This document shows positions 60,425 through 61,162 of a stretch of DNA of 64,000 nucleotides, piece after piece. This DNA is from Escherichia phage 121Q. The notes under the pieces are model-generated. The model was given only the letters and a program-made list of their open reading frames with translations. It made no database searches and had not been told where the DNA came from. Every line of letters begins with the position of its first letter. Position 1 is the first letter of the stretch. The stretch lies in the sequence record NC_025447.1. One strand, written 5' to 3'. Both the position numbers and the translations under genes were made by a program.

Positions 60425-61162
60425 TTAGACTGAATTGTTAGGATAATATCTCCCACGTCCCCATATTATTCGCACAGCACCACCACCAGCAGCCGTATAA
60501 GAAAAATTATCCCATATACTACCACCACCACCATACATCTTACCAGCACCACCACTACCAGCACCACCATTATATGAACCATCGTATCTACCGCCAATAC
60601 CATTAGCACCTTGAACAATGATACCAGTACCACCACCCGTACCAATGAACGAGGTATTATAGAATGCACCACCACCACCGCCGCCGCCAGCACCATTTTC
60701 ACCAGTGATTGCATCTCCGTTACCACCTTTACCAGTGTAGCCACCAGCACCACCACCAATGACTGCACCACCACTTACACCAGCGTTGCCCCCATTACCA
60801 CCACCATCATTAATAGCGTTAGCAGCTTTCCCACCTAGTCCACCAACCCTATATTCACCAGTGAAGCTAACACATAGTTTTTCAGTTCCACGATATAAAC
60901 CGTTTTCAACTGCTGTAGTAGTGTTGGGATGTGTAAGAGAAACACTTAAGTACTCACCACTAGTAACCGGAATATTATTACGCCACGATAAGCCGCCACC
61001 AGCACCACGTTGACCACCCGGCGAAATAACACATACTGATATTTCGGTAACGCCAGCAGGAACTGTAAATTGTGTTGTTCCTATTGTCGTGATTAATTGT
61101 TCACCATCTGGCTTATATTCAATTTTATTCCCGTACTTTACCATTCTTCCAAAAGGTAACAT
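60425..61162 (-). CDS. glycine-rich protein with MLPF N-terminal module
   Basis: MLPFGRMVKYGN start; C-terminal about 150 aa dominated by GGxGGxG tracts. Confidence 0.55.
   Translation of the reverse strand: MLPFGRMVKYGNKIEYKPDGEQLITTIGTTQFTVPAGVTEISVCVISPGGQRGAGGGLSWRNNIPVTSGEYLSVSLTHPNTTTAVENGLYRGTEKLCVSFTGEYRVGGLGGKAANAINDGGGNGGNAGVSGGAVIGGGAGGYTGKGGNGDAITGENGAGGGGGGGAFYNTSFIGTGGGTGIIVQGANGIGGRYDGSYNGGAGSGGAGKMYGGGGSIWDNFSYTAAGGGAVRIIWGRGRYYPNNSV

What the first reader, a model, noticed from the sequence alone, without database searches (positions are those of the whole stretch)
60425..61162. Glycine-rich member of the MLPF family
One paralog keeps the N-terminal module but replaces the propeller with long Gly tracts (GAGGGLS..., GGGNGGNAGVSGGAVIGGGAGGYTGKGGNG..., GAGGGGGGGAF...). 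This shows the module is a portable tag placed on unrelated bodies. The low complexity also creates spurious overlapping ORFs in other frames.
Basis: seen in the sequence. Interest (0 to 1): 0.55.

Follow-up and report, generated by a model that had tools for sequence, protein, structure and literature searches.

The report
Tagged glycine-rich virion adhesin, jumbo phage
A jumbo E. coli phage carries a real 245-residue gene that joins a 12-residue N-terminal tag, shared by many unrelated virion proteins of this phage group, to a folded glycine-rich domain of the type that forms receptor-binding tips of other phages' tail fibres; the domain is known, the tag appears undescribed.

Summary
Window 60425..61162 (-) is a 245-aa ORF, 28.6% Gly, in an Asteriusvirus (PBECO4/SP27-like jumbo coliphage). 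It starts MLPFGRMVKYGN, like eight neighbouring RCC1-propeller paralogs.

The "portable tag" reading is supported and extended:
- The motif MLPF-x5-Y-[GA]-N heads RCC1, Kelch, Laminin-G-like, glycine-rich and unassigned bodies.
- It occurs only in Rak2-like 350-380 kb phages (Asteriusvirus, CBB, GAP32, Serratia BF, Yersinia fHe-Yen9-04).
- Published virion proteomes contain 9 of 11 tagged CBB proteins (p = 2e-8), including the glycine-rich homologue CBB_144, and 8 of 11 tagged phAPEC6 proteins (p = 2e-6).

Most likely the tag docks accessory binding proteins onto the virion, and this member adds a glycan- or LPS-binding head. The docking site and whether the protein sits outside or inside the particle are untested. 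The out-of-frame ORFs are real and have caused a GenBank misannotation (phAPEC6 gp004).

The parts
60425..61162 (-). CDS of the glycine-rich MLPF-tagged protein (245 aa + stop)
   Evidence: ORF. Identical to P0001 'Asteriusvirus' protein and 100% identical to an SP27 hypothetical protein. Matches phrog_4474, E 1.3e-69.
61127..61162 (-). Codons 1-12: the MLPFGRMVKYGN N-terminal tag
   Evidence: Shared with 8 window paralogs and with tagged proteins of CBB, GAP32, BF, fHe-Yen9-04 and others. Low pLDDT in the model (first 10-residue block mean 48).
61106..61126 (-). Codons 13-19 (KIEYKPD): linker. DNA and protein similarity to the RCC1 paralogs ends here.
   Evidence: Alignment A4 shows identity ending right after AAT (Asn12). 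The first strand of the model starts at residue 20.
60833..61105 (-). Approx. residues 20-110: TNF-like beta-sandwich part of the body (boundary approximate)
60428..60832 (-). Approx. residues 111-245: glycine-rich motifs (INDGGGNGG, GGGAGGYTGKGGNG, GGGGGGG, GGGTGI, YGGGG) and the C-terminal GAVRIIWG..YP strand
61167..61174 (-). Shine-Dalgarno AAAGGAGG, 4 nt upstream of the start codon
   Evidence: Sequence.
61180..61199 (-). 20-nt family-specific box TTGTATTAAATATAGTATAA (promoter-like; function inferred)
   Evidence: 7 exact copies, all upstream of MLPF genes, against 0.04 expected by chance.
61207..61227 (-). Hairpin AGCCAGTACAAAGTACTGGCT followed by a T-run: terminator-like end of the upstream paralog and start of the cassette
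   Evidence: The same hairpin type precedes the other paralogs.
60399..60417 (-). Hairpin downstream of the stop codon: terminator-like end of this gene and start of the next cassette
   Evidence: reported on the + strand as GCTAGTATCAAGTACTGGC.
60466..60774 (-). Spurious overlapping ORF (102 aa, Val-rich) in another frame; equivalent to the misannotated phAPEC6 gp004
60611..60838 (+). Spurious antisense ORF (75 aa, Thr-rich)
60759..61013 (+). Spurious antisense ORF (84 aa, Pro-rich)
61234..62424 (-). Upstream neighbour: MLPF-tagged RCC1-propeller paralog (396 aa)
59205..60353 (-). Downstream neighbour: MLPF-tagged RCC1-propeller paralog (382 aa)
53089..63635 (-). Whole array of nine MLPF-tagged genes. 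Tag ATGs at 63635, 62424, 61162, 60353, 59134, 57910, 56621, 55431 and 54241.
   Evidence: Two members are frame-disrupted.

Best explanation
The gene encodes a virion-associated accessory binding protein built from three parts.

1. **Tag (residues 1-12, MLPFGRMVKYGN).** This is a short, probably beta-strand-forming peptide. All 'MLPF' proteins of Rak2-like jumbo phages share it. It directs them into or onto the virion by docking to a common, still unidentified structural site.
2. **Linker (residues 13-19).**
3. **Body (residues 20-245).** This is a TNF-like beta-sandwich carrying a lattice of polyglycine-II strands. The same module forms the receptor-recognising distal tip of the Pam3 tail fibre and occurs in Bxb1 gp33/gp29. 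It most likely binds a host surface polysaccharide such as LPS.

The gene sits as one self-contained cassette (hairpin, 20-nt box, SD, tag, body) in an array of RCC1-propeller cassettes. It is present in only some Asteriusvirus genomes, as expected for an exchangeable host-interaction module.

**Shown:** the ORF and its frame; the tag shared across unrelated bodies; the fold of the body; virion presence of the CBB homologue and of most tagged proteins.

**Inferred:** that the tag is the incorporation signal; that the protein is displayed on the outside (hairy capsid or tail appendages); that the ligand is a surface glycan.
For: **Real gene, correct frame**
- 197 homologues in the first search; up to 61% identity in the alignment to non-Asteriusvirus proteins.
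- 5,837 cluster representatives at E<=1e-3 and 1,161 at E<=1e-30.
- An in-frame GGT indel in phAPEC6.

**Fold**
- AlphaFold2 mean pLDDT 92.8, pTM 0.89. Only residues ~1-15 are uncertain.
- The top Foldseek PDB hit is also 7ypx.
- 90 viral models at E<=1e-3, mostly named 'Glycine-rich domain-containing protein'.
- 10 of 40 aligned full-length homologues hit PF21722.

**Function of this fold in the literature**
- It is the host-recognition tip of Pam3 gp24 (PMC9608196).
- In the gp24-like TFP_Y of a Klebsiella phage, host-range mutations map to the glycine-rich domain, and the protein blocks LPS-triggered DNA ejection (PMC12671077).

**Tag**
- Invariant residues sit on bodies that are only 23-29% identical.
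- The tag is found on RCC1, Kelch, Laminin_G_3, glycine-rich and unassigned bodies.
- It is conserved at the peptide level with varied codons and unrelated upstream DNA in CBB.
- Genuine tagged ORFs occur only in 350-380 kb Rak2-like genomes.

**Virion association**
- CBB_144 (tag + glycine-rich body, BLASTP E 1e-17 to this protein) gave 5 peptides and 34% coverage in purified virions (PMC5259590).
- 9 of 11 tagged CBB proteins are among the 55 of 554 detected (Fisher p 2.4e-8).
- All six CBB virion proteins without a GAP32 homologue are tagged.
- 8 of 11 annotated tagged phAPEC6 proteins are among the 62 of 551 detected (p 2.1e-6).
- The tagged GAP32 gp1 is also reported as an MS-detected structural protein (tag seen).

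**Outside display**
- All recognisable bodies are ligand-binding beta-folds typical of phage surface proteins.
- Pro-rich linkers follow the tag.
- phAPEC6 and CBB virions carry unassigned fibres or hairs on capsid and tail (PMC7247149; PMC5259590).
Against: - No experiment places this protein, or the tag, at any site. The protein itself has never been looked for in a virion: in phAPEC6 it was not in the annotation used for MS.
- Peptide counts for tagged proteins are low (1-8). MS of purified particles cannot separate surface, internal and co-purifying proteins.
- 25-40 kDa globular proteins cannot themselves be the ~119-nm hairs. GAP32, for which hairs were not reported, also has tagged proteins.
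- Pam3 gp24 docks and trimerises through an N-terminal helical domain and needs a chaperone. This protein has neither.
- Stand-alone homologues with a different N-terminus (MLELL...) sit next to lysis genes in two metagenomic phages. That placement does not look like a tail-fibre context.
- The Pfam and NCBIfam models do not hit this protein directly.
Confidence: 0.6

Rival explanations
1. The MLPF peptide is a capsid-targeting sequence like the T4 CTS. Tagged proteins would be loaded into the prohead core, end up inside the head (inner body or ejection proteins), and be injected with the DNA. The glycine-rich and propeller bodies would then act inside the host.
For: - T4 internal proteins are a diverse set that shares only a ~10-residue N-terminal CTS, and the CTS is portable to foreign proteins (PMC3012670).
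- The arrangement here is formally the same: a short conserved N-terminus, unrelated bodies and a variable locus.
- Tagged proteins are found in purified virions.
- The phAPEC6 authors suggested the RCC1 proteins might organise DNA around the inner body.
Against: - The tag has no conserved Glu or L/I-x-E cleavage motif. Position 9 is K/N in Asteriusvirus and E/Q/K/A/V in CBB.
- All recognisable bodies are extracellular-type ligand-binding folds: Laminin_G_3 lectin-like, Kelch and RCC1 propellers, and a tail-fibre-tip glycine-rich domain.
- The glycine-rich fold is known in phages only from external receptor-binding parts.
- Pro-rich linkers after the tag suit display rather than packing.
Confidence: 0.17
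2. The shared N-terminus is a by-product of a shared DNA cassette. The hairpin, box, SD and first 36 nt would be kept for expression and as a recombination handle for swapping bodies. The peptide itself would have no function, and the glycine-rich gene simply landed in an RCC1 slot.
For: - In the window, the conserved DNA runs uninterrupted from the hairpin through codon 12. Synonymous sites within the tag are almost invariant among paralogs.
- The 20-nt box is exact in 7 copies.
- The gene is present in 16 records and absent from PBECO4-type arrays, as expected for cassette gain and loss.
Against: - In CBB the tagged genes abut one another and have unrelated upstream DNA. They use different codons (CCA/CCT/CCG, TTC/TTT, TAC/TAT, TTA/CTT) yet keep M-L-P-F-x5-Y-[GA]-N.
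- Window paralog 55431 has the tag without the cassette.
- The tag is conserved across genera whose DNA no longer aligns.
- The association with virion detection (p 2e-8 and 2e-6) would be unexplained.
Confidence: 0.07
3. The protein is not a virion component in Asteriusvirus. It would act in the infected cell or at its envelope (for example lysis-associated or superinfection-related), and MS detection of relatives would reflect co-purification.
For: - Homologues with another N-terminus lie directly after an endolysin (L009) or before spanin-like genes (L010).
- The Seunavirus homologue and CBB_144 lie among replication and nucleotide-metabolism genes, outside the structural modules.
- This protein itself has no proteomic record.
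Against: - CBB_144 had 34% coverage in purified virions.
- The fold's only characterised phage roles are in tail fibres or tail tips.
- The protein shares tag and cassette with paralogs repeatedly found in virions.
- There is no signal peptide or membrane segment in the sequence.
Confidence: 0.08
4. The Gly-rich frame is not translated, and one of the overlapping ORFs (as annotated in phAPEC6 gp004) is the real gene.
For: GenBank MK817115 annotates only the out-of-frame 100-aa ORF.
Against: - The alternative frames read as Val-, Thr- or Pro-rich strings, as expected from GGT repeats read out of frame or on the opposite strand.
- The Gly frame has thousands of homologues, a confident fold, a perfect SD and start, and a proteomically detected homologue.
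Confidence: 0.01

Closest known systems
Pectobacterium phage CBB gp144 (CBB_144, 'structural protein')
   Same: Same architecture: MLPF tag (MLPFSPLIVYGN) followed by a glycine-rich body of ~250 aa. BLASTP E 1e-17 with 36% identity over residues 1-120. Detected in virions by ESI-MS/MS.
   Different: It belongs to a different genus (Mimasvirus). It lies alone between nrdD and nrdG rather than in a paralog array. Its C-terminal half is more diverged and lacks the VRIIWG ending. No function has been assigned.
Cyanophage Pam3 tail fibre gp24 (PDB 7YPX/7YFW) and its LPS-binding relative TFP_Y
   Different: No detectable sequence similarity. gp24 has an N-terminal alpha-helical domain for trimerisation and baseplate docking and a dedicated chaperone gp25. 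Here a 12-residue tag takes the place of that domain, and no chaperone gene is adjacent.
Mycobacteriophage Bxb1 tail wing brush gp33 and tail spike gp29 (PDB 9D93)
   Different: A siphovirus of an actinobacterial host, with different attachment domains. 14-24% identity in structure-based alignment only.
Salmonella phage S16 / T-even gp38 adhesin (PDB 6F45) polyglycine-II sandwich
   Same: Same principle: conserved glycine-rich motifs form a PGII lattice that presents variable loops for receptor binding (as described).
ALK/LTK receptor glycine-rich domain (PDB 7LIR, 7LRZ, 7NX3)
   Different: A metazoan cytokine-binding ectodomain. The similarity is in fold only.
Pfam PF21722 (Gly_rich_2, 'Glycine-rich domain') / PHROG 4474
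   Same: Full-length alignment at 38-46% identity with PF21722-positive proteins. phrog_4474 matches at E 1.3e-69.
   Different: The Pfam HMM does not report this protein even at E<=1. Both families are annotated with unknown function.
T4 capsid targeting sequence (CTS) of internal proteins IPI-III
   Same: A ~10-residue N-terminal peptide is the only feature shared by otherwise unrelated virion proteins in a variable locus, and it is portable (PMC3012670).
   Different: No sequence similarity. No conserved Glu cleavage site. The bodies here look like surface-binding modules. The destination of MLPF proteins is unknown.

Membership tests
MLPF-tagged protein set of Rak2-like jumbo phages (defined here) | N-terminal motif M-L-P-F-x5-Y-[GA]-N at the true start codon | tested here: met
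   MLPFGRMVKYGN at 61162, with the SD 4 nt upstream.
MLPF-tagged protein set of Rak2-like jumbo phages (defined here) | Asteriusvirus 5' cassette: hairpin, 20-nt box TTGTATTAAATATAGTATAA, SD | tested here: met
   Box at 61180-61199 with 0 mismatches. Hairpin at 61207-61227.
MLPF-tagged protein set of Rak2-like jumbo phages (defined here) | Protein present in purified virions | not testable with these tools
   Only indirect evidence: the homologue CBB_144 and most tagged paralogs were detected. This protein was missing from the phAPEC6 annotation.
RCC1-like propeller paralogs (phrog_4219; 'regulator of chromosome condensation') | RCC1 repeats / seven-bladed propeller body | tested here: not met
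   No RCC1 Pfam hit, whereas all four neighbours hit. The PHROG match is 4474, not 4219. The fold is a beta-sandwich plus Gly lattice.
Pfam PF21722 Gly_rich_2 (glycine-rich domain) | Score above the Pfam threshold with the family HMM | tested here: not met
   0 families at E<=1 and at E<=0.01 in the alignment scan, possibly because of composition-bias filtering.
Pfam PF21722 Gly_rich_2 (glycine-rich domain) | Homology over the full length to proteins that do carry the domain | tested here: met
   P0038 (PF21722): E 1.4e-16 in the database search and 38% identity over 228 aa. 10 of 40 aligned homologues hit PF21722.
Pfam PF21722 Gly_rich_2 (glycine-rich domain) | Conserved motif set (VP.GV, GGGLSWRN.IPV.PGE, NDGGGNGG, GGGAGGY.G.GG, G.G..G, YGGG, G.VRIIWG..R.[YF]P) | tested here: met
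   Invariant and near-invariant columns in A1/A2.
Pam3 gp24-type tail fibre | TNF-like domain plus glycine-rich domain | tested here: met
Pam3 gp24-type tail fibre | N-terminal alpha-helical domain for trimerisation and baseplate docking | tested here: not met
   Only 19 residues precede the first strand, and the model has no helix in the N-terminal region before the first strand.
Pam3 gp24-type tail fibre | Adjacent Tfa-like assembly chaperone gene | tested here: not met
   Both neighbours are RCC1 paralogs.
Pam3 gp24-type tail fibre | Trimeric assembly attached to the baseplate | not testable with these tools
   No multimer prediction or structure is available.
T-even gp38 adhesin | gp37-binding N-terminal domain and PGII sandwich with hypervariable segments | tested here: not met
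T4-type CTS internal proteins | N-terminal targeting peptide ending in a conserved L/I-x-E prohead-protease site | tested here: not met
   No conserved Glu in or just after the tag in Asteriusvirus. Position 9 varies (E/Q/K/A/V) in CBB.
T4-type CTS internal proteins | Location inside the capsid, ejected with DNA | not testable with these tools
   Needs protease protection, bubblegram imaging or ejection assays.

The most novel reading that the evidence does not exclude
The 12-residue MLPF peptide is a universal docking handle of Rak2-like jumbo phages. Through it, one virion would display a mixed repertoire of ten or more unrelated glycan- or protein-binding heads on a common repeated site, such as the fibres at capsid hexamer centres or the tail 'hairs'. 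The heads include RCC1 and Kelch propellers, Laminin-G lectin folds, and the TNF-like/polyglycine-II tip described here. This would be a combinatorial adhesin-display system whose heads are swapped as cassettes. It would identify the unassigned hairy decoration of phAPEC6 and CBB, and it would give a minimal tag for loading foreign proteins onto jumbo-phage particles.
Probability: 0.35. Interest if true: 0.78.

Novelty: new variant of a known kind. Interest (0 to 1): 0.6.

Why it matters
- **Annotation.** The gene is annotated 'hypothetical' in every record, and in phAPEC6 and CMSTMSU it is mis-called. It now has a confident fold and a plausible role, which corrects public annotation.
- **A shared rule for jumbo-phage virion proteins.** The short N-terminal tag unites the puzzling 'chromosome condensation', Kelch-like and 'structural' proteins of Rak2-like jumbo phages. 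It is strongly enriched in two independent virion proteomes. All six CBB virion proteins that set hairy CBB apart from GAP32 carry it, which offers a concrete lead for the unassigned hairs and fibres of these phages.
- **Engineering.** If the tag is sufficient for incorporation, it would be a 12-residue handle for displaying or packaging cargo on very large phage particles, comparable in use to the T4 CTS or Hoc/Soc display.
- **Host range.** The presence or absence of the glycine-rich cassette among near-identical coliphages makes it a candidate accessory host-range or adsorption determinant, which is relevant to phage-therapy candidates of this genus.

Tried and rejected
1. **Direct Pfam and NCBIfam scans of the protein:** no hit. 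Family assignment had to go through homologues.
2. **dN/dS among Asteriusvirus orthologues to prove the frame:** the five sequences are about 98% identical, and one record has compensating frameshifts, so the test is uninformative. The frame rests on deep homology, the fold and the CBB proteomics instead.
3. **Profile search of PDB sequences:** the only hit was a marginal, meaningless match to a galectin tandem construct. The relationship to Pam3 gp24 is visible only by structure.
5. **AlphaFold of an RCC1 paralog** from a 6-sequence alignment, to see whether the tag is a free tail or a propeller 'velcro' strand: the model failed (pLDDT 43.8). The question stays open for the propeller members.
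6. **Tag plus linker peptide against PDB sequences:** nothing.
7. **Literature search for 'MLPF' with 'phage',** and reading of the phAPEC6, CBB, fEgEco12, Sharanji and jumbo-phage review papers: no description of the tag.
8. **A second lineage-specific tag (MLELL/MIELM)** on other bodies in the flanks of three metagenomic or Seunavirus homologues: no convincing extra members.
9. **Sigma-70 promoter scan of the array:** not above shuffled expectation. The 20-nt box does not fit -35/-10 spacing, so its promoter role is only inferred from position.
10. **Considered and rejected:** a signal peptide (the tag is not hydrophobic enough) and collagen-like or PE-PGRS-type disorder (the confident compact fold argues against it).
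Full report
**What the window is.** The region matches PBECO4/121Q-like jumbo coliphages (genus Asteriusvirus). 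The 4-kb neighbourhood hits 34 phage records. The protein in question is 100% identical to a hypothetical protein of phage SP27 and 93-99.6% identical in 14 further Escherichia phages (84.7% in CMSTMSU). Genes on the minus strand from about 53 to 64 kb form an array of paralogs.

**Checking the observation.** The minus-strand ORF from the ATG at 61162 to the stop at 60425-60427 encodes 245 residues beginning MLPFGRMVKYGN.
- The mechanically longest ORF starts 18 nt further upstream (MNKGGS...).
- Glycine makes up 28.6% of the protein and 38.5% of residues 111-245.
- Nine ORFs in the array begin with MLPF. The neighbours tested are RCC1-type propellers by Pfam and PHROG 4219. This protein has no RCC1 signal and matches PHROG 4474 (unknown function) at E 1.3e-69.
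- Three ORFs of 75-102 codons overlap the gene in other frames and read as Val-, Thr- or Pro-rich strings.
- This has practical consequences. In the phAPEC6 GenBank record the true gene is not annotated, and gp004 is the out-of-frame Val-rich ORF. CMSTMSU splits the gene.

**The shared module.** Aligning 100 nt upstream and 120 nt downstream of the nine start codons shows a conserved block. It consists of a GC-rich hairpin followed by a T-run (terminator-like), a 20-nt box, the SD and the first 12-15 codons.
- The box occurs seven times with no mismatch and nowhere else in 64 kb, even allowing three mismatches (expected 0.04).
- In the glycine-rich member, similarity to the paralogs stops right after codon 12.
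- At the protein level, six intact RCC1 paralogs are only 23-29% identical, yet residues 1-4, 6, 7 and 10-15 are invariant.

**Is the tag a peptide feature or a DNA feature?** The decisive comparison is with Pectobacterium phage CBB, which belongs to another genus.
- CBB_144 has the same architecture: MLPFSPLIVYGN plus a glycine-rich body.
- A minus-strand cluster at the end of the CBB genome (CBB_536, 537, 548-554) and CBB_247 all begin MLPF-x-[RIP]-x3-Y-[GA]-N.
- These genes abut one another, have unrelated upstream sequences and use different synonymous codons in the tag. Selection therefore acts on the peptide.
- Their bodies are Laminin_G_3 (548, 551, 247), Kelch propellers (550, 552, 554) or unassigned.
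- Two degenerate-pattern scans of the IMG/VR collection found genuine tagged ORFs only in 350-380 kb genomes: CBB, GAP32, Serratia phage BF (and related Erwinia phages), Yersinia phage fHe-Yen9-04 and four metagenomic contigs. These include a 667-aa RCC1+Kelch fusion. The few other matches are not ORFs or look unrelated.

**Link to the virion.**
- The CBB virion proteome (55 of 554 gene products) contains 9 of the 11 tagged proteins (Fisher p 2.4e-8), including CBB_144 with 5 peptides and 34% coverage (PMC5259590).
- The six CBB virion proteins that have no gene in GAP32 (144, 247, 536, 537, 551, 552) are all tagged. The authors saw these as candidates for what distinguishes hairy CBB.
- The phAPEC6 proteome (62 of 551) contains 8 of the 11 annotated tagged RCC1-like proteins (p 2.1e-6; PMC7247149).
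- The tagged GAP32 gp1 is also reported as a structural protein found by MS.
- The glycine-rich protein could not have been found in phAPEC6, because it was not in the annotation.

**What the glycine-rich body is.**
- The first database search gave 197 homologues. Most are stand-alone proteins of 240-280 residues, and many carry Pfam PF21722.
- An exhaustive profile search found 5,837 cluster representatives (1,161 at E<=1e-30). In these the module is either stand-alone or the C-terminal or repeated part of very long proteins.
- The glycine motifs are conserved columns, not random runs.
- AlphaFold2 with a 40-sequence alignment gives mean pLDDT 92.8 and pTM 0.89. Only the first ~15 residues are uncertain.
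- BFVD contains 90 viral models with this fold.
- According to the Pam3 paper, the module is a TNF-like sandwich whose strands extend into a lattice of glycine-rich motifs with variable distal loops that recognise the host. A gp24-like protein of a Klebsiella phage binds LPS, and its host-range mutations map to the glycine-rich domain. These bundles are classed with the polyglycine-II domains of S16 gp38 and ALK.
- The body is thus a new member of a known, widespread domain family, and its best-characterised relatives are receptor-binding tips.
- It differs from gp24 in lacking the helical stalk and the chaperone gene. The 12-residue tag stands where the docking domain would be.

**Origin and variability.**
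- The nearest relatives outside Asteriusvirus keep an MLPF-like start (P0003 MIPFARIVKYGN, P0004, P0016).
- Slightly more distant ones (alignment identity ~50-53%) begin MLELL/MIELM.
- PBECO4 has an array of RCC1 genes only. Sixteen records carry the glycine-rich cassette in the same slot.
- This is what one expects of a body captured behind the family's 5' cassette and then gained or lost by recombination between cassettes. That step is inferred, not shown.

**Mechanism proposed.**
- Shown: a real gene; tag, linker and body; the body's fold; virion presence of the homologue and of most tagged proteins.
- Inferred: the tag is a docking peptide. Its alternating hydrophobic pattern and G-N turn would suit beta-strand addition. 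It would attach diverse binding heads to a common site on the particle. This head would bind a surface glycan, adding to adsorption or host range.
- The unassigned fibres at capsid hexamer centres and the rings of tail hairs in phAPEC6 and CBB are obvious candidate sites. Nothing here tests that.
- The main rival is a T4-CTS-like internal targeting signal. It is disfavoured by the lack of a conserved cleavage motif and by the nature of the bodies, but it is not excluded.

**Novelty and score.**
- The body is known (PF21722, Pam3-like).
- The gene is an unannotated or mis-annotated member.
- I could not find the tag in the searchable literature. It looks like a new variant of the known principle 'conserved N-terminal anchor or targeting peptide plus exchangeable body'.
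- Interest is moderate to good (0.6). The regularity is clear, statistically strong, previously unnoticed, and has engineering potential. Its mechanism is still inferred.

Noticed in passing
L002 (phAPEC6 MK817115) 7325..8059, 7716..8018, 2434..3543, 6063..7253: The phAPEC6 GenBank record lacks the glycine-rich gene and instead annotates gp004, an out-of-frame Val-rich ORF inside it. Two intact MLPF-tagged RCC1 ORFs (2434..3543 and 6063..7253) have no annotated CDS in the feature table returned. The published virion proteome was therefore probably searched against an incomplete set.
   Followed up: partly
window 56731..57910 (-) and 53089..54241 (-): Two of the nine MLPF paralogs are frame-disrupted. 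The first has a 4-bp insertion (ATGG) at nt 179-182 relative to the otherwise 99.6% identical, intact phAPEC6 gp006. The second changes frame after about codon 74. These could be pseudogenes, sequencing errors or something programmed; which is undetermined.
   Followed up: partly
window 55431 (-) start; 54241 (-) start: Paralog 55431 carries the tag but not the hairpin/20-nt-box cassette; it follows the upstream gene directly. Paralog 54241 has a degenerate box and a tag lacking Y-G-N (MLPFGRIITSSK). The cassette and the tag can therefore be uncoupled within one genome.
   Followed up: no
L010 7879..9372 and 9375..10060; L009 9162..10783: Stand-alone glycine-rich homologues with an MLELL/MIELL-type N-terminus occur as a tandem pair directly upstream of spanin-like genes and the terminase in a phiTE-like contig. 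In a 216-kb contig, one lies directly downstream of a PG_binding_1+Muramidase endolysin. This recurrent neighbourhood with lysis genes is unexplained.
   Followed up: partly
alignment A1/A2, N-termini of P0005-P0035, P0061: Most stand-alone family members from unrelated phages share a short N-terminus, M-[LIF]-E-[LM]-[LMI]. This might be a second lineage-specific tag. No other proteins with it were found in the limited flanks examined.
   Followed up: partly
P0002 (206 aa, Logan contig of 26.7 kb): A close variant (80% identity) starts MNKGGNKIEYKP. It lacks exactly the MLPFGRMVKYG codons and also lacks an internal 35-residue glycine block. Either natural deletion variants exist or this is an assembly artefact in repetitive GGT sequence.
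   Followed up: no
L006 (CMSTMSU MH494197) 1519..2253: The orthologue in this 'UNVERIFIED' record has a 1-bp and a 2-bp deletion 86 nt apart that together restore the frame. The record annotates fragments with a Mycobacterium PE-PGRS-type note. This probably reflects sequence errors plus annotation transfer by glycine richness.
   Followed up: no
window ~53000: Gene orientation switches from the plus strand (1-53 kb, many small ORFs) to the minus strand (the MLPF array). The sign of GC skew flips at the same place. In phAPEC6 and CBB the equivalent array lies at the end of the genome map.
   Followed up: no
L017 6413..8416 (-), L028 140..2161 (+), L033 1903..3933 (+): Metagenomic Rak2-like contigs encode ~670-aa MLPF-tagged proteins. 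The one scanned with Pfam (L017 6413..8416) combines an RCC1-like and a Kelch propeller in one chain, so tagged bodies can also be fused to each other.
   Followed up: partly
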